From Nitrospinota bacterium (lineage in GTDB: Bacteria > JADFOP01 > DATKYB01): a stretch of 64,000 bases of DNA. The notes beneath the pieces were generated by a model. The model ran no database searches. It was not told the DNA's origin and worked only from the letters and a program-made list of their open reading frames with translations. The position numbers were made by a program, and so were the translations under genes. Below, in pieces: positions 1,704 through 41,286 of this stretch. The stretch is from assembly GCA_035528715.1 (NCBI GenBank), contig DATKYB010000054.1:131-64130 (forward strand), in the 5' to 3' direction. Every line of letters begins with the position of its first letter. Within the stretch, counting starts at the first letter, position 1.

Positions 1704-1789
1704 GTATGTTTATATACTTGAATCCAGCGAGAATCTATGTCTGGAACTTATTAATCGATGCCTAAATGGCAATAAAGGGAGGAGATAAG

Positions 1790-3421
1790 ATGTTCAATGG
1801 TATCTTTCATATCCGAAAGCCTCAAAATGAACCTGTGCTTAGCTACGCCCCTAGCAGCAAAGAACGTAGCGAACTAAAAGCCAAGCTCAAGGAGATGCTT
1901 GAAAATCCGGTCGAAGTCCCCTGTATCATTGGTGGAAAGGAAGTATTAACAGGCGACCTTGTCGAAATGAGAACACCTCATAACCACAACCAGATTCTTG
2001 GTCGCTATCATCGCGCCAGTGCCAAGCAGGCCGAGATGGCAATTGCCGCTGCAAACGAGGCGAAGTATGCATGGAGTGAGATGCAGTGGTCTTCACGGGC
2101 AACCGTATTGCTCAAAGCCGCAGAGCTTCTGGCTGACAAGTACCGTCAGACTCTCAATGCGGCAACTATGCTCTGCATGAGCAAAACATGCCACCAAGCG
2201 GAGATCGATTCTGCATGCGAGCTGATCGATTTCTGGCGCTTCAATCCCTACTTCATGACAGAGATCTACGATGACCAGCCGATTTCCACAAAGGAGGTCC
2301 TAAACTACATGGAACACCGCCCACTTGAGGGTTTTGTATTCGCGGTCTCCCCTTTCAACTTTACATCGATTGCAGGTAACCTCCCTACCTCACCGGCTCT
2401 TATGGGAAATGCTGTTGTCTGGAAGCCATCATCAGCGGCAGTACTCCCAGCGTATTATATCATGAAGGTGCTGAAAGAGGCCGGAATGCCCGATGGCATT
2501 ATTAATTTGATTCCCGGACCAGGCCCGGTTATCGGCCCGCCCGTGCTCAACCATCTAGACCTTGGTGGTGTTCATTTCACTGGTTCGACCTATGTATTTT
2601 CGACCATCTGGCTGGCCATTGGCTCTGATATACGTAAATACTACTCCTATCCTCGGATTGTTGGAGAGACAGGCGGCAAGGACTTTATTTTTGCTCACAC
2701 CTCTGCCAACGTGGACGCCCTTGTCACTGGCATTGTACGCGGAGCCTTTGAGTATCAGGGCCAGAAGTGCTCGGCTGCCAGCCGAATTTATATCCCTGCC
2801 AGTATCTGGCCCAAAGTCAAGGAGCGGCTGCTCGATGAGGTTGCAACGATAAAGGTTGGGGACGTCTGCGACTTCAGCAACTTCATGAATGCTGTAATCA
2901 ACAGGAAGGCCTTTAAGAAAATCTCCGAGTATATAGAATTTGCAAAAAACGATCCTAACTTGGAGATACTCTGCGGTGGGACTTGCGACGACAATTTGGG
3001 ATACTTTATCCAGCCGACAGTTGTAGAAAGCAAAGACCCTCGCTCAAAACTGATGTGCGAGGAGATTTTTGGTCCGGTCATAACTGTCTACGTTTATCCA
3101 GATAAGCAATACGAAAAGATGCTTGAGCTTTGTGACAAGACCAGTCCTTATGCTCTTACAGGCGGCATCTATGCACAGGATAGATTCGCTATTGTGACGG
3201 CTGTCAAGGCGCTTAGAAACGCTGCGGGCAACTTCTATATCAATGACAAGCCAACCGGAGCTGTTGTTGGGCAGCAGCCTTTTGGCGGAGCGCGCGCCTC
3301 AGGCACCAACGATAAGGCTGGGAGCTGGTTGAATCTCGAACGCTGGATCTCCACTCGTGCCATTAAAGAGACCTTTATACCACCGACTGACTACCGTTAT
3401 CCGTTTATGGAAGAAAAGTAA
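1790..3421 (+). CDS. L-glutamate gamma-semialdehyde (1-pyrroline-5-carboxylate) dehydrogenase, ALDH4 type
   Basis: ALDH superfamily motifs: catalytic Cys in GQKCSAASR and Glu in ETGGKD. The N-terminal block NEPVLSYAPSSKERSELKAKLKEM...VPCIIGGKEV is typical of ALDH4A1-like P5C dehydrogenases. GGGAGGAG SD precedes the ATG at 1790; the track ORF starts at 1766. Local GC is far above the neighbouring sequence. Confidence 0.8.
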   Translation: MFNGIFHIRKPQNEPVLSYAPSSKERSELKAKLKEMLENPVEVPCIIGGKEVLTGDLVEMRTPHNHNQILGRYHRASAKQAEMAIAAANEAKYAWSEMQWSSRATVLLKAAELLADKYRQTLNAATMLCMSKTCHQAEIDSACELIDFWRFNPYFMTEIYDDQPISTKEVLNYMEHRPLEGFVFAVSPFNFTSIAGNLPTSPALMGNAVVWKPSSAAVLPAYYIMKVLKEAGMPDGIINLIPGPGPVIGPPVLNHLDLGGVHFTGSTYVFSTIWLAIGSDIRKYYSYPRIVGETGGKDFIFAHTSANVDALVTGIVRGAFEYQGQKCSAASRIYIPASIWPKVKERLLDEVATIKVGDVCDFSNFMNAVINRKAFKKISEYIEFAKNDPNLEILCGGTCDDNLGYFIQPTVVESKDPRSKLMCEEIFGPVITVYVYPDKQYEKMLELCDKTSPYALTGGIYAQDRFAIVTAVKALRNAAGNFYINDKPTGAVVGQQPFGGARASGTNDKAGSWLNLERWISTRAIKETFIPPTDYRYPFMEEK

Positions 3422-3628: not shown

Positions 3629-3751
3629 ATGAAAGAAATAACAAAAGAGGATGGAAAACGTTATTTTACATGTGAAGAATGTGGTCTTTTATATAATAAA
3701 AAGGAATGGGCTTTGAAGTGCGAGGCATGGTGCTCGACTCATGATAGCTGA
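3629..3751 (+). CDS. Small (40 aa) zinc-ribbon-like protein: MKEITKEDGKRYFTCEECGLLYNKKEWALKCEAWCSTHDS
   Basis: Below the ORF-track size cutoff. Strong SD (AGGGGGTTAGG) immediately upstream of the ATG. CxxC ... C...C cysteine pattern. Confidence 0.4.
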   Translation: MKEITKEDGKRYFTCEECGLLYNKKEWALKCEAWCSTHDS

Positions 3752-3822: not shown

Positions 3823-4818
3823 TTATTTTTCAGTAATCGATTCTTCTATTTTTTGACCGAAATGTCGTCCGGCTTCTTCTACATAACCCAGAACTTCATC
3901 TCCAGGTTTCAAGTTAACAACTGAGACCGCTTTTCCACCAGGTTTTGTTAATCTGATGGTTTCAGCATTCTGCATGATTAATGAAATAGGGCTGTTTTCG
4001 TATTCTGCTTTGATTAAAATCATAGGACGTTTTTCGATTTTTGCCCTGCCAAGATTAGTTGTATAGGTCGTGCCATCATGATTAACTATTAACAGTTCAT
4101 CACCTGTTTCCAAATCGGTCAGATATTTGGTTTTATTATCAGGAAGTTTTAAGTAGGCATGGACAGCACTTGCATTTACCCTAAATGGCCTTGGCTCGCA
4201 GTAAGGTGTTTGTAAAGATTCTGAGTGAACTAATAAATATCCTGATGAAGTATCACCTACAAGCATGCCTGCTCCTTTACCCATATTTGTGGTTGTATCA
4301 ATACAAACTCTGTCAGCGAGGCCCAACTGTTTTATTTCTACAATTTTTGCTTTGATTAAATTGATTTTTTCTGAGGTTTGAAAAACCACTTTTGACACTT
4401 TCTTTAATTCATTTATGTTTCTTGTCTTTAAAACAACGCCGGCAACACCCTTTTCTAAAATATTTAATGCTATCTCTGCTTCTTTTGAATTTTTGACATA
4501 ACAATAAACGTTTTCTGGATTTGATGCTATCAGGTCTTCTAAGGGGATAATTTTCCAATCTGAAATTTTAGCAATCATTGGCACCTTTTTTACTTTGTCC
4601 ATCGCTTTTTTTTCATCTTCTTTATTATTGATCTCCTGGACTAAAATATCTTTGCCCAATCTGATGTCACCCTTTTGAGAAATGACTTTTATCAACCCCA
4701 ATTTTTTTATCTTTTTGACATCTGTGTCATTGCAAAGGAGTGCATCTGCACCGGATTCTATTGCAGTTGTGACAATCTTTTTATCATAATCAGTTACATC
4801 GACATAAAATTTCTTCAT
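3823..4818 (-). CDS. 3-dehydroquinate synthase II (archaeal-type DHQ synthase, AroB-prime)
   Basis: About 330 aa; its sequence matches the family that works with ADH synthase. Start codon lies 3 nt after the upstream gene's stop, so the two are translationally coupled. Confidence 0.8.
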   Translation of the reverse strand: MKKFYVDVTDYDKKIVTTAIESGADALLCNDTDVKKIKKLGLIKVISQKGDIRLGKDILVQEINNKEDEKKAMDKVKKVPMIAKISDWKIIPLEDLIASNPENVYCYVKNSKEAEIALNILEKGVAGVVLKTRNINELKKVSKVVFQTSEKINLIKAKIVEIKQLGLADRVCIDTTTNMGKGAGMLVGDTSSGYLLVHSESLQTPYCEPRPFRVNASAVHAYLKLPDNKTKYLTDLETGDELLIVNHDGTTYTTNLGRAKIEKRPMILIKAEYENSPISLIMQNAETIRLTKPGGKAVSVVNLKPGDEVLGYVEEAGRHFGQKIEESITEK

Positions 4819-4821
4819 CGC

Positions 4822-5616
4822 TTATCTCTTTTTAAGTAGCTCTAAGGCTTCTTTGGCACTTATTCCTTTATGAACCATCTCGCAGGCTGCTTTTACAAAT
4901 TTCACTGGGTCTTCATGCTGAAAAGCATTTCTCCCCATTGATAACCCAGCAGCCCCTGCCTTCATTGCACCCTCAATCATCTTCAGAGTCTCTTCATCTG
5001 ACAATTTCGAACCCCCTGCTATGACAACGGGTACGGGGCAGCCTTCGACAACCTCCTTAAAGGTTTCAGGACTGCCTGTATAAGGACATTTAATAATGTC
5101 TGCACCCAATTCCACACCAACACGTGCAACATGTTTTACAGCATCAACATCATTTTCATTCTGAATCTTCTTGCCTCTGGGATACATCATGGCAAGCAAA
5201 GGCATACCCCATTCCATGCATTCAATAGAAACCTTACCAAGATCTCTTAGCATCCGGGCTTCGTCCTCTGCTCCAATATTGATATGTACAGAAACAGCAT
5301 CAGCGCCCATCTTTATAGCTCGCTGTACATTATTGACAAGAACTTTATAATTAGGGTCTGGCCCCAGAGACGTTGATGCAGACAGGTGAAGTATCAGCCC
5401 AATATCTTTACCTGTGCCTCTGTGACCATGTAACGCCATTCCTACATGTAAGACTACTGCATTCACACCGCCTTCAGCTATCAAATTGATAGTTTTTGGC
5501 ATATCAATAAGACCTTTTATCGGACCAACGGTAACGCCATGGTCCATTGGAACAATTACGATTTTCTTGGTATTCCGGTTTATGATTCTTTCAAGTCTTA
5601 TTAATTTTCCAATCAT
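4822..5616 (-). CDS. 2-amino-3,7-dideoxy-D-threo-hept-6-ulosonate synthase (AroA-prime), class I aldolase (DhnA) family
   Basis: 264 aa DhnA-type class I aldolase fold (VPMDHG... [10 protein letters not shown]...). Adjacent to and co-directional with DHQ synthase II, the canonical pairing of the alternative DHQ pathway. Confidence 0.8.
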
Positions 5617-5670
5617 TTTATTACCTCCATTTTACTTAAAAATATTTATTAGAACTACTCTCATATTGTT

Positions 5671-5708
5671 ATAATCTTATAGAAATTTTAATCTTAAAAT
5701 AAGATTAT
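5671..5708. promoter_or_regulatory. Nested palindromes ATAATCTTAT-N9-AATCTTAAAATAAGATTAT in the divergent intergenic region between the aroA-prime operon and the VOC gene. Candidate operator.
   Basis: ATAATCTTAT at 5671-5680 is the exact reverse complement of ATAAGATTAT at 5699-5708. The inner AATCTTA-AAA-TAAGATT is itself a perfect palindrome. Confidence 0.3.
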
Positions 5709-5856
5709 GATAAATTTTAGTGGAACGCAAGTCAAATAAATTTTGCTAATTGAATTTTTTTAAAAGAGATATTAGATTAATATAAAATTTTATAAAAAAG
5801 TTTGTTCATATAAAGAAATCATATTAACTTAACCTTAAAAGAAAGGAGGGTTTGTT

Positions 5857-6444
5857 ATGATTAAATTTAATGGAATCAATCATCTGGCTATGGTTACTGG
5901 AGATATGGATAAGACGATTCGATTTTGGAGGGACTTGCTGGGTATGCGCCTGGTGGCTGGTCTTGGAAAACGCGGATATAGGCATTACTTTTTTGAAATC
6001 TCTGAAAATGATCTCATTGCATTTTTTGAATGGCCAGGCATAGAACCTGTGGAGCCTAAGGATCACGGACGACCAGTTACTGGTCCATTTATTTTCGATC
6101 ACATCTCCTTTGGAGTAGAAACCGAGGAGGAACTCTGGCAGCTAAAGGATAATCTATCAACTGCTGGTTTTGAGGTATCAAACATGATCGATCACGGATT
6201 CATCCACTCCATCTATGCCCACGATCCTAATGGTATCCCCATTGAGTTCAGCTGGAATGTTGAAGGCATCAATATCCGAAAGACGCCTAGGATGGTGGAT
6301 GACCAACCCTCCAACGTCACTCAAGAAGGTTCAGAGCCTCAATTAAAAAAATGGCCAAAAGTCAAAATACCTACACCTCCAGAAAAGCGAACTGTATATC
6401 CTGGAGCTGGAAGTGAACTCTTCCATGGAGTTAAAAAGTCTTAA
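5857..6444 (+). CDS. VOC family protein (glyoxalase, bleomycin resistance or dioxygenase fold)
   Basis: N-terminal INHLAMVTGDMDKTIRFWRDLLGM... glyoxalase-type beta-alpha-beta-beta-beta module. AAAGGAGGG SD 7 nt upstream. Confidence 0.8.
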   Translation: MIKFNGINHLAMVTGDMDKTIRFWRDLLGMRLVAGLGKRGYRHYFFEISENDLIAFFEWPGIEPVEPKDHGRPVTGPFIFDHISFGVETEEELWQLKDNLSTAGFEVSNMIDHGFIHSIYAHDPNGIPIEFSWNVEGINIRKTPRMVDDQPSNVTQEGSEPQLKKWPKVKIPTPPEKRTVYPGAGSELFHGVKKS

Positions 6445-6451
6445 TAAGAAA

Positions 6452-7212
6452 TTACCTTTCAGCTACAATCCATAGAAAATCTCTAAATGGAGGGGAGACA
6501 AATAGCAGTGGGGAAATGAGAAATTTCGAAAAAACCTTTTTTGGATTATCTTTCCAACAATTACCCTCCCTGATAAATCCTGAGGATTGTATTTTAAATC
6601 CCGTTTGAGAAACAAGCTCTCTTAATTCCTTCATGGTGTACAATCTATTATGTCGGTAAAAGAAACTCATCCCTTTGTAGTAAATGGGCTCTTGATAATA
6701 TGAATCCAAATCAGGATAGAGGTTATAACCTAACAATAGTTTAAAAAGATTAATCAAGCGAAGAGCATTAGGAGTTGTGATAATTAATCTTCCACCCTTT
6801 TTTAAAACTCTTTTTATTTTTCTTAAAGGAATAAGGGGGGAATAGTTGAAGTGCTCTACAATTTCTCCAAGAAAAACCACATCAAAAACCTCTTCTCCAA
6901 AAGGCAAATTATCAATTTCAATATTCAATTGGAAGAAAGGCACCCCCATCTCTTTACAGTGAATTTTGGGTATATCTCCATAAAAAAATCTACCCCAAAA
7001 ACCTTAAAGCCATGAATCTTAAGAAATTTTGTTTGATAACAGAAACCGCAACCTATATCCAGAATTTTAGATGAGGAAGATAAAGGTAATGCAAGCTCTA
7101 TCATTTTAAGGTATCTTTTTTTATTTTGCTCGAGATGTAGAAAATTAAAATTTTCTCCTTCTAATTCTAAATAAGCTTGTTTTAATTTTTGAGAGAGTAA
7201 ATTCTTTTTCAT
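6452..7212 (-). pseudogene. Class I SAM-dependent methyltransferase split by a frameshift into two ORFs (6925..7212 N-terminal part, 6452..6949 C-terminal part)
   Basis: The N-terminal ORF carries motif I (ILDIGCGFCY...FKVFGVDF). The C-terminal ORF carries the downstream methyltransferase motifs (VPFFQLNIEIDNLPFGEEVFDVVFLGEIVEHF ... LKKGGRLIITTPN). The two frames overlap at 6925-6949, next to A7 and C4A5 homopolymers. Confidence 0.6.
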
Positions 7213-39744: not shown

Positions 39745-39866
39745 GTAAATAAATCTTTATTTTTCTTTTTTTAAGGCTTAAAACTAAGAAATTGAAAGCT
39801 TTTAATGAGGATTAGAAAGGAATGAATAAGATAAGAATTAATTGGAAAAGAAATTAGAAAAATATA

Positions 39867-40295
39867 CCAAAGTAGATCATAAGCCGGGTTCTGTACCTAA
39901 AAAATTAGGTGATGATCATTTATCTGGGACACAGGTTACCCTTTGCCTCTAGCGACCTAACCCGAAAGCATCGGACGAGCAATCCTTATTTAGAAATAAG
40001 CAACTTCGTGAATAACCACAAAGTAAAATAGCTTATATCTAAAGTGCTTCCCTATTTGGTCTTGCTCCGGATGGGGTTTGTCAGCTCTCGATGTCACCAT
40101 CGAGACTGGTAAGCTCTTACCTTACCTTTTCACCTTTGCCCTTTTAAAGATTTTTTAAAAGGGTAGTCTCTTTTCTGTGACACTTTCCTTAGGGTTACCC
40201 CTACTGGACGTTATCCAGCATCCTGCTCTGCGGAGCCCGGACTTTCCTCTAGTTTCAAAAAATTTTGAAACCAGCGATCATCTGATCTACTTTGG
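39867..40295 (-). ncRNA. rnpB: RNase P RNA, bacterial type A
   Basis: Minus-strand transcript contains P4 5'-strand AGGAAAGTCCGGGCTCC and P4 3'-strand ACAGAACCCGGCTTA; GGTGAAAAGGTAAGGTAAGAGCTTACC (P10-P12 region); GGAGCAAGACCAAATAGGG. A 13-bp P1 helix (CCAAAGTAGATCA/TGATCTACTTTGG) defines the ends. Region is GC-rich relative to its surroundings. TATAAT about 10 nt upstream of the 5' end. Confidence 0.9.
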
Positions 40296-41210: not shown

Positions 41211-41286
41211 TGGTGGGCCCACCTGGGCTCGAACCAGGGACCTACCGGTTATGAGCCGGTGGCTCTTCCAACTGAGCTATGGGCCC
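41211..41286 (-). tRNA. tRNA with anticodon CAU and CCA encoded; most likely tRNA-Ile2 (lysidine), alternatively elongator tRNA-Met
   Basis: Cloverleaf GGGCCCA-TA-GCTC-AGTTGGAA-GAGC-C-ACCGG-CTCATAA-CCGGT-AGGTC-CCTGG-TTCGAGC-CCAGG-TGGGCCC-A-CCA. G1:C72 excludes an initiator. C4:G69, C5:G68 and C29:G41 match TilS identity elements. It lies immediately downstream of rpoD, as ileX does in E. coli. Confidence 0.9.

What the first reader, a model, noticed from the sequence alone, without database searches (positions are those of the whole stretch)
3823..5616. Archaeal-type 3-dehydroquinate route in a bacterium
An ADH synthase (DhnA-family class I aldolase) is immediately followed, with a 3-nt gap, by DHQ synthase II. 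This is the gene pair that builds 3-dehydroquinate from 6-deoxy-5-ketofructose-1-phosphate and aspartate semialdehyde in methanogens. It implies this organism may bypass DAHP synthase and classical AroB.
Basis: partly seen in the sequence, partly recalled or inferred. Interest (0 to 1): 0.5.

Follow-up and report, generated by a model that had tools for sequence, protein, structure and literature searches.

The report
Known archaeal-type dehydroquinate genes in bacterium
A Nitrospinota bacterium carries the two-gene "archaeal" route to 3-dehydroquinate (ADH synthase plus dehydroquinate synthase II); the call is correct, but these genes are already annotated as such in GenBank, are widespread in bacteria, and have been described in bacteria since 2005.

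Summary
On the minus strand, a 264-aa ORF (5616..4822) is followed after 3 nt by a 331-aa ORF (4818..3823). The first clears the curated equivalog cut-off for ADH synthase, is 59% identical to the crystallised M. jannaschii enzyme MJ0400, and keeps its Asp/Tyr/Lys catalytic residues. The second clears the cut-off for 3-dehydroquinate synthase II. The host is a bacterium (bacterial RNase P, rpoD, dcw cluster). Both proteins are already in GenBank under these names (HUU50146.1 and HUU50145.1, Nitrospinota MAG). DHQS-II occurs in at least 597 species-representative genomes, and most of the 80 examined are labelled bacterial. The aldolase is adjacent in half of those 80 loci. In the nearest relatives the pair heads a full aroD-aroE-aroK-aroC-aroA-tyrA/pheA operon. 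The genes were named aroA'/aroB' in Desulfovibrio vulgaris in 2005. The pair is compositionally native, so it is not a recent import. The inference that the organism bypasses DAHP synthase and AroB could not be tested from a 64-kb window. It is also weakened because a canonical AroB lies beside the same pair in some Planctomycete genomes. The verdict is a correct annotation of a known feature, of low interest.

The parts
4822..5616 (-). [quoted passage not shown]
   Evidence: TIGR01949 367 bits (cut-off 299) and NF005556 403 bits (cut-off 241). Pfam DeoC. Full-length match to MJ0400 / PDB 2QJG, E=1e-104, 59% identity. D25, H26, Y145 and K176 (MJ0400 D33, H34, Y153, K184) and the Gly/Arg phosphate site are invariant in 44 homologs. 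GenBank HUU50146.1 carries the same name.
3823..4818 (-). aroB' : 3-dehydroquinate synthase II (NAD-dependent oxidative deamination and cyclisation of ADH to DHQ), 331 aa
   Evidence: NF002627 450 bits (cut-off 392). Pfam PF01959 399 bits, plus PF26558 DHQS_2nd. GenBank HUU50145.1 carries the same name. No solved homolog. The AlphaFold model has pLDDT 78, with an N-terminal partial TIM-barrel-like domain and a beta-rich C-terminal domain.
4819..4821 (-). 3-nt intergenic spacer (TAA GCG ATG). It suggests co-transcription and possible translational coupling of the two genes.
   Evidence: Sequence read directly. The aldolase is within 300 nt upstream of DHQS-II in 40 of 80 other genomes.
5624..5628 (-). 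GGAGG Shine-Dalgarno, 7 nt upstream of the aroA' start codon
   Evidence: Sequence read directly.
5707..5735 (-). Sigma-70-like promoter candidate (TTGACT-17-TATCAT, 10 of 12 matches) in the 240-bp divergent intergenic region. Weak evidence only.
   Evidence: Consensus scan. The number of such sites in the region (14) is not above the shuffled expectation (11.6 +/- 3.2), so this is a candidate and not a finding.

Best explanation
A two-gene operon on the minus strand encodes the alternative ('archaeal-type', aroA'/aroB') entry into the shikimate pathway. AroA' (ADH synthase) forms a Schiff base through Lys176 with a ketohexose 1-phosphate; in M. jannaschii this is 6-deoxy-5-ketofructose 1-phosphate. 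[quoted passage not shown] AroB' (DHQ synthase II) then oxidatively deaminates this product with NAD and cyclises it to 3-dehydroquinate, which feeds the ordinary aroD-aroE-aroK-aroA-aroC steps encoded elsewhere in the genome. Shown here: the gene identities, the catalytic residues, the operon-like arrangement, the bacterial host, native composition, and the association of the pair with downstream shikimate genes in relatives. Inferred from the archaeal biochemistry: the actual substrates and chemistry. Not shown: that this is the organism's only route to DHQ.
For: Both proteins clear curated equivalog cut-offs. The aldolase is 59% identical over its full length to the crystallised MJ0400 and has invariant D25/H26/Y145/K176; the residue roles come from PMC4162585 and PMC2728841. 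The genes are 3 nt apart with a strong SD. The next-nearest homologs (67-69% identity) lie in operons ordered ADHS, DHQS-II, aroD, aroE, aroK, chorismate mutase, aroC, aroA, tyrA/pheA, aminotransferase, with no DAHP synthase or AroB. Of 75 genome loci, 22 have aro/phe/tyr genes in the flanks, confirmed by NCBIfam. The pair heads the aromatic supraoperon of Desulfovibrio vulgaris (PMC1173090) and a co-regulated aromatic operon in D. hydrothermalis (PMC4162548). GC3 and codon usage of both genes are typical of the window.
Against: In this window the pair is not linked to any other aromatic-pathway gene. No gene for DKFP or methylglyoxal supply was found in the window. The first substrate is disputed even in haloarchaea, where the MJ0400 homolog showed F-1,6-P aldolase activity and no detectable transaldolase activity (PMC4162585). 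No bacterial enzyme of either family appears to have been characterised in the literature I could search. A canonical AroB co-occurs with the pair in some Planctomycetes, so the pair need not be the sole route.
Confidence: 0.82

Rival explanations
1. The pair is functional but not a bypass. The organism also has DAHP synthase and classical AroB elsewhere, and aroA'/aroB' is a second, conditionally used or redundant route to DHQ.
For: A canonical AroB (TIGR01357, 319 bits against a cut-off of 305) lies directly beside the ADHS/DHQS-II pair in Planctomycete locus L048. Related copies are in L062 and L045. The window's pair is detached from all other aro genes.
Against: In the nearest relatives the pair sits at the head of complete aro operons that contain no DAHP synthase or AroB. 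Aquifex was reported to lack both classical enzymes (PMC3018139). Nothing in the 64-kb window encodes either classical enzyme, though that is only a small part of the genome.
Confidence: 0.3
2. The chemistry matches the archaeal route, but the sugar substrate in this bacterium is not DKFP. It could be fructose 1,6-bisphosphate or another ketose phosphate, because no bacterial DKFP-forming route is known.
For: The haloarchaeal homolog OE1472F showed F-1,6-P aldolase activity and no DKFP transaldolase activity, and its authors proposed F-1,6-P as a precursor (PMC4162585). MJ0400 crystals bind F-1,6-P/DHAP at Lys184. The window has no methylglyoxal synthase or MJ1585-like aldolase.
Against: Only 64 kb was examined, so supply genes could lie elsewhere. 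The enzyme is 59% identical to MJ0400, for which DKFP + ASA activity was measured (table in PMC4162585 citing White 2004).
Confidence: 0.2
3. The pair is a secondary-metabolite module of the GriI/GriH (BagB/BagC, FevI/FevH) type, which makes 3-amino-4-hydroxybenzoate from aspartate semialdehyde and DHAP rather than DHQ.
For: The two-gene architecture is the same, with homologous families. Both window proteins hit the BagB_FevI and BagC_FevH models.
Against: The scores are far below those models' cut-offs (223 against 500, and 159 against 750), while the ADH_synth and DHQS-II models are passed. There are no biosynthetic-cluster genes nearby; the neighbours are housekeeping. Relatives embed the pair in primary aromatic amino-acid operons.
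Confidence: 0.02

Closest known systems
M. jannaschii MJ0400 (ADH synthase, AroA', EC 2.2.1.10; PDB 2QJG/2QJH/2QJI) and MJ1249 (DHQ synthase II, AroB', EC 1.4.1.24); White 2004, as cited in PMC4162585 and PMC1173090
   Same: The two families are the same. The aldolase is 59% identical over its full length with identical catalytic Asp/Tyr/Lys and phosphate-binding residues. DHQS-II passes the equivalog model.
   Different: The host is a bacterium (Nitrospinota). The two genes are adjacent here; the far-apart locus numbers MJ0400 and MJ1249 suggest they are unlinked in M. jannaschii, which is my inference and was not checked. No biochemical data exist for this or, as far as I could find, any bacterial ortholog.
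Desulfovibrio vulgaris aroA'/aroB' at the head of the aromatic supraoperon (Song et al. 2005, PMC1173090), and the D. hydrothermalis cluster 'aldolase aq_1554' + DHQ synthase + pheA-aroA-tyrA-trp genes (PMC4162548)
   Same: A bacterial host, with the aldolase immediately upstream of DHQS-II and an inferred role in aromatic amino-acid biosynthesis.
   Different: In Desulfovibrio and in the window's nearest relatives (L087-L089) the pair is fused to a long aro/phe/tyr/trp operon. In this window it stands alone between a VOC/glyoxalase-family gene and a P5C dehydrogenase.
GriI/GriH, BagB/BagC and FevI/FevH 3,4-AHBA synthase pairs of actinomycetes
   Same: A homologous aldolase plus a homologous DHQS-II-like cyclase, both using aspartate semialdehyde (the NCBIfam models NF041223 and NF041224 are hit).
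   Different: The scores are far below those models' cut-offs, the product is different (an aminohydroxybenzoate rather than DHQ), and there is no secondary-metabolite context here.
Archaeal-type class I fructose-bisphosphate aldolase (T. tenax FBPA, PDB 1OJX) and E. coli LsrF
   Same: The same TIM-barrel Schiff-base aldolase superfamily, with shared Lys/Asp/Tyr machinery.
   Different: The similarity is much weaker (E=1e-40 and 1e-30 against 1e-104 for MJ0400). NF040816 scores 189 bits (cut-off 430) and NF006081 scores 168 bits (cut-off 297).

Membership tests
ADH synthase (AroA', TIGR01949 / NF005556, EC 2.2.1.10) | Full-length match above the curated equivalog cut-off | tested here: met
   TIGR01949: 367.4 bits against 299.45, residues 2-259 on profile positions 1-255. 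NF005556: 403.1 bits against 241.
ADH synthase (AroA', TIGR01949 / NF005556, EC 2.2.1.10) | Schiff-base Lys184, general base Asp33 and proton donor Tyr153 of MJ0400 | tested here: met
   K176, D25 and Y145 align with these residues and are invariant in 44 homologs. Residue roles come from PMC4162585 and PMC2728841.
ADH synthase (AroA', TIGR01949 / NF005556, EC 2.2.1.10) | Closer to MJ0400 than to class I FBP aldolase or LsrF | tested here: met
   PDB search: MJ0400 E=1e-104, T. tenax FBPA 2e-40, LsrF 1e-30. The Fbpase1_Arch and LsrF models fall below their cut-offs.
ADH synthase (AroA', TIGR01949 / NF005556, EC 2.2.1.10) | Transaldolase activity on DKFP + L-aspartate semialdehyde | not testable with these tools
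   This needs an enzyme assay. The substrate is disputed even for the haloarchaeal ortholog.
3-dehydroquinate synthase II (AroB', PF01959 / NF002627, EC 1.4.1.24) | Full-length match above the curated cut-off, with the two-domain PF01959 + PF26558 architecture | tested here: met
   NF002627: 450.2 bits against 392, residues 1-331 on profile positions 1-330. PF01959: 398.8 bits. PF26558 is recorded for this protein.
3-dehydroquinate synthase II (AroB', PF01959 / NF002627, EC 1.4.1.24) | Genomic pairing with an ADH synthase gene | tested here: met
   3-nt gap here. The aldolase is adjacent (within 300 nt) in 40 of 80 other genomes and within 5 kb in 16 more.
3-dehydroquinate synthase II (AroB', PF01959 / NF002627, EC 1.4.1.24) | Linkage with downstream shikimate genes (aroD/E/K/A/C) | tested here: not met
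   None in the 64-kb window. The feature is met in the nearest relatives L007 and L087-L089 and in 22 of 75 loci. This is supportive context, not a strict family criterion.
3-dehydroquinate synthase II (AroB', PF01959 / NF002627, EC 1.4.1.24) | NAD-dependent oxidative deamination and cyclisation of ADH to DHQ; catalytic residues | not testable with these tools
   No solved structure exists. The model gives only generic partial TIM-barrel matches. Ninety-six invariant positions are listed in alignment A1, but their roles are unknown.
3,4-AHBA synthase pair (BagB/FevI NF041223 and BagC/FevH NF041224; GriI/GriH type) | Score above the curated cut-offs of the exception models | tested here: not met
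   222.9 bits against 500, and 158.8 bits against 750.
Organisms that use aroA'/aroB' instead of DAHP synthase + AroB ('bypass') | Genome-wide absence of DAHP synthase and classical AroB | not testable with these tools
   Only 64 kb is available and it contains neither enzyme. The species is not in the searched representative genome set (best hit 68%). A counter-example of co-occurrence exists in L048.

The most novel reading that the evidence does not exclude
In this Nitrospinota lineage the detached aroA'/aroB' pair is the only entry into the shikimate pathway and runs on a precursor other than DKFP, since no DKFP-forming route is known in bacteria. This would be an uncharacterised bacterial variant of the first step. 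The tandem ADH-synthase paralogs seen in relatives might supply the missing precursor-forming activity.
Probability: 0.15. Interest if true: 0.45.

Novelty: already known. Interest (0 to 1): 0.15.

Why it matters
It matters little as a discovery. The annotation is correct and already public, and bacterial aroA'/aroB' has been in the literature since 2005. It has some value as a reminder. Pathway databases still label this route 'archaea' (MetaCyc PWY-6160 and PWY-6165, as quoted in PMC11364081), although it occurs in at least several hundred bacterial species across Planctomycetota, Desulfobacterota, Aquificota, Nitrospirota and Nitrospinota. I also found no biochemical characterisation of a bacterial ortholog and no identified source of its sugar substrate in bacteria. 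That is a real but modest open question.

Tried and rejected
1. Genome-wide test for DAHP synthase and AroB was not possible. The window holds 64 kb only, and the single genome-collection scan did not return this species (best hit 68% identity).
2. Literature searches for an explicit bacterial biochemical study found only genomic or contextual mentions. White 2004 is not held. The GapMind main text and supplements do not mention the route, and neither does Price 2018.
3. Checking archaeal-labelled loci gave no firm answer. Rfam found no RNA markers. L007's flanks are ambiguous, with a class-I LysRS but also an NAGGN synthetase and an AroK-type kinase. I therefore make no claim about the direction of inter-domain transfer.
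5. A functional link with the neighbouring VOC/glyoxalase gene, which might suggest a methylglyoxal connection, was rejected as evidence. That neighbour is conserved only in contigs of the same species.
6. Recent horizontal acquisition of the pair was rejected, because GC3 and codon usage are native-like.
7. The 3,4-AHBA synthase reading was rejected on profile cut-offs.

Full report
OBSERVATION. The window has two minus-strand ORFs at exactly the stated coordinates: 5616..4822 (264 aa) and 4818..3823 (331 aa). The junction reads TAA-GCG-ATG, which is the stated 3-nt gap. The first gene has a GGAGG Shine-Dalgarno 7 nt upstream of its ATG. A sigma-70-like site (TTGACT-17-TATCAT) lies in the 240-bp divergent intergenic region, but such sites are no more frequent there than in shuffled sequence. 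I treat the two genes as one transcription unit; that is an inference.

IDENTITY OF THE TWO PROTEINS. ORF1 scores 367 bits on the NCBIfam equivalog TIGR01949 'ADH_synth' (cut-off 299) and 403 bits on NF005556 (cut-off 241). ORF2 scores 450 bits on the equivalog NF002627 '3-dehydroquinate synthase II' (cut-off 392). Pfam gives DeoC/LacD aldolase for ORF1 and DHQS (PF01959) for ORF2.

Against solved structures, ORF1 matches M. jannaschii MJ0400 (the ADH synthase, PDB 2QJG) over its whole length at E=1e-104. The T. tenax class I FBP aldolase scores 2e-40 and LsrF scores 1e-30. Identity to MJ0400 is 59% over 262 residues. MJ0400 residues Asp33 (general base), Tyr153 (proton donor) and Lys184 (Schiff base) correspond to D25, Y145 and K176. 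These, together with H26, R147 and the Gly-Gly and Gly-Arg phosphate-binding positions, are invariant across 44 sequences. The residue roles come from PMC4162585 and PMC2728841.

HOST. The window encodes a bacterial class-A RNase P RNA and a set of bacterial housekeeping genes: RpoD, DnaG, MutS2, Rho, PrfA/PrmC, MurA, a his operon, type IV pilus genes, RsmH at the head of a run of minus-strand ORFs that I take to be the dcw cluster but did not scan, DivIVA, ProC and MtnA. [quoted passage not shown] The same gene pair, in the same context, is found on metagenome contigs from several JGI, ENA and SRA samples.

IS IT FOREIGN? GC3 is 0.35 for ADHS and 0.29 for DHQS-II, against a mean of 0.32 +/- 0.055 for 33 window genes. 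Codon-usage distances are within about 1 SD. The pair is compositionally native and not a recent import.

DISTRIBUTION AND CONTEXT ELSEWHERE. A protein search returned 7,988 homologs at E<=1e-20, and the search scored only the 8,000 top candidates. Most of the best 80 are labelled bacterial, about nine carry archaeal labels, and several are labelled only 'bacterium': Planctomycetota (Phycisphaerae, Sedimentisphaerales), Desulfobacterota, Aquificota (including the isolate Sulfurihydrogenibium yellowstonense SS-5), Nitrospirota, Armatimonadota and Poribacteria.

An ADH-synthase homolog lies within 300 nt upstream on the same strand in 40 of the 80 loci, and within 5 kb in 16 more. Six loci have too little upstream flank to judge. 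After clustering all flanking ORFs and naming the clusters with NCBIfam, 22 of 75 loci carry aroD, aroE (or an aroDE fusion), aroK, aroA, aroC, pheA or tyrA in the flanks.

The next-nearest relatives of the window's DHQS-II (67-69% identity) have a complete operon ordered ADHS, DHQS-II, aroD, aroE, aroK, chorismate mutase, aroC, aroA, tyrA/pheA, aminotransferase. The pair occupies the position where DAHP synthase and AroB would otherwise be. This is strong contextual evidence that the pair supplies DHQ for aromatic amino-acid synthesis. In the window itself the pair is detached. tblastn with AroB, AroD/E, AroK, AroA, AroC, PheA and TyrA queries finds nothing at E<=1e-3. The neighbours are a VOC/glyoxalase-family protein and a P5C dehydrogenase, and both are conserved only within this species' contigs.

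PRECEDENT. Song et al. [quoted passage not shown] In D. hydrothermalis, 'aldolase aq_1554' and '3-dehydroquinate synthase' are co-regulated with pheA, aroA, tyrA and the trp genes (PMC4162548). Zucko et al. 2010 cite an earlier comparative study in which Aquifex aeolicus, like three archaea, lacked DAHP synthase and DHQ synthase (PMC3018139). The route in bacteria is therefore known, even though MetaCyc still titles it '(archaea)' (as quoted in PMC11364081).

THE 'BYPASS' INFERENCE. This could not be tested. The window is 64 kb, and the species is not in the representative genome collection (best hit 68%). Two things can be said. First, operons in relatives that run from aroA'/aroB' straight into aroD through aroA, without DAHP synthase or AroB, are consistent with replacement. 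Second, possession of the pair is not sufficient evidence. In Planctomycete locus L048 a canonical AroB (TIGR01357, 319 bits against a cut-off of 305) lies directly next to the ADHS/DHQS-II pair. Related copies are in L062 (286 bits, apparently interrupted) and L045 (partial). I put the chance that this organism also has the classical enzymes at roughly 0.3.

MECHANISM. By homology with the M. jannaschii system (White 2004, as summarised in PMC4162585), AroA' forms a Lys176 Schiff base with a ketohexose 1-phosphate (DKFP). It releases hydroxypyruvaldehyde phosphate and adds the retained fragment to L-aspartate semialdehyde. AroB' then oxidatively deaminates the product with NAD and cyclises it to DHQ. 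The sugar substrate is the weakest link. The haloarchaeal ortholog showed F-1,6-P aldolase activity but no detectable DKFP transaldolase activity. I also found no DKFP or methylglyoxal supply gene in the window.

RIVALS. The homologous GriI/GriH-type (BagB/BagC) 3,4-AHBA synthase pair is rejected: the scores are 223 bits against a cut-off of 500 and 159 bits against a cut-off of 750, and the surrounding genes are housekeeping. Class I FBP aldolase and LsrF identities are rejected on cut-offs and on the PDB ranking.

VERDICT. The feature is already annotated in GenBank and already described for bacteria. The metabolic consequence is plausible but untested. Interest is low.

Noticed in passing
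window 1766-3421 (+): The L-glutamate gamma-semialdehyde (P5C) dehydrogenase gene (TIGR01236, 781 bits) is a strong compositional outlier. Its GC is 0.49 and its GC3 is 0.54, against a window gene mean GC3 of 0.32 +/- 0.055. Its codon-usage distance is about 3.5 SD above the mean. It is a candidate for recent horizontal acquisition.
   Followed up: partly
window 3629-3751 (+): A 40-aa ORF convergent with DHQS-II is called as a gene with Pfam DUF7128 on the matching JGI and ENA contigs. Its function is unknown.
   Followed up: no
window 5857-6444 (+): A VOC/glyoxalase-family protein (PF00903) is transcribed divergently from the aldolase. A methylglyoxal link to DKFP formation is tempting, but this neighbour is conserved only in contigs of the same species and in none of the 80 other genomes.
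   Followed up: partly
window 6452-6949 and 6925-7212 (-): Two overlapping ORFs (165 aa and 95 aa) look like the two halves of one class I SAM-dependent methyltransferase. The same split is called on independent JGI and ENA assemblies, so it is a real frameshift or pseudogene and not a sequencing error in one assembly.
   Followed up: no
L007 8351-9945; L037 2390-3184 and 5719-6513; L076 4097-5857; L073; L083; L089 8290-9924: Several genomes carry two ADH-synthase paralogs next to DHQS-II, often in tandem. The six copies scanned (L007, L037, L076) all pass the TIGR01949 cut-off. One copy might have a different role, for example forming the sugar precursor.
   Followed up: partly
L048 6989-9038; L062 3400-5534; L045 37-294: In some Planctomycete genomes a canonical AroB lies immediately upstream of the ADHS/DHQS-II pair. 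Between them is a 314-aa HMGL-like (DRE-TIM) aldolase that is distantly related to 4-hydroxy-2-oxovalerate aldolase and scores below its cut-off. This is an unexplained gene combination.
   Followed up: partly
26 Planctomycete loci, e.g. L062 9857-10315: An MgtC/SapB-family membrane protein gene directly follows, and often overlaps, DHQS-II in 26 of the 80 loci. There is no obvious link to aromatic biosynthesis.
   Followed up: no
L007, L009, L016, L018, L033, L041, L052: Several loci with the closest DHQS-II homologs carry archaeal organism labels (Methanosarcinales, Nanohalarchaeota, Aenigmatarchaeota). L007 nevertheless encodes an AroK-type shikimate kinase and an NAGGN synthetase alongside a class-I LysRS, and no RNA markers were found. 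The labels may be unreliable, and the domain of these contigs is unresolved.
   Followed up: partly
window 39865-40293 (-) and 41211-41286 (-): A bacterial class-A RNase P RNA (322 bits) and a tRNA-Met (CAT) lie between the dcw cluster and rpoD/dnaG. They are ordinary but useful as domain markers.
   Followed up: yes
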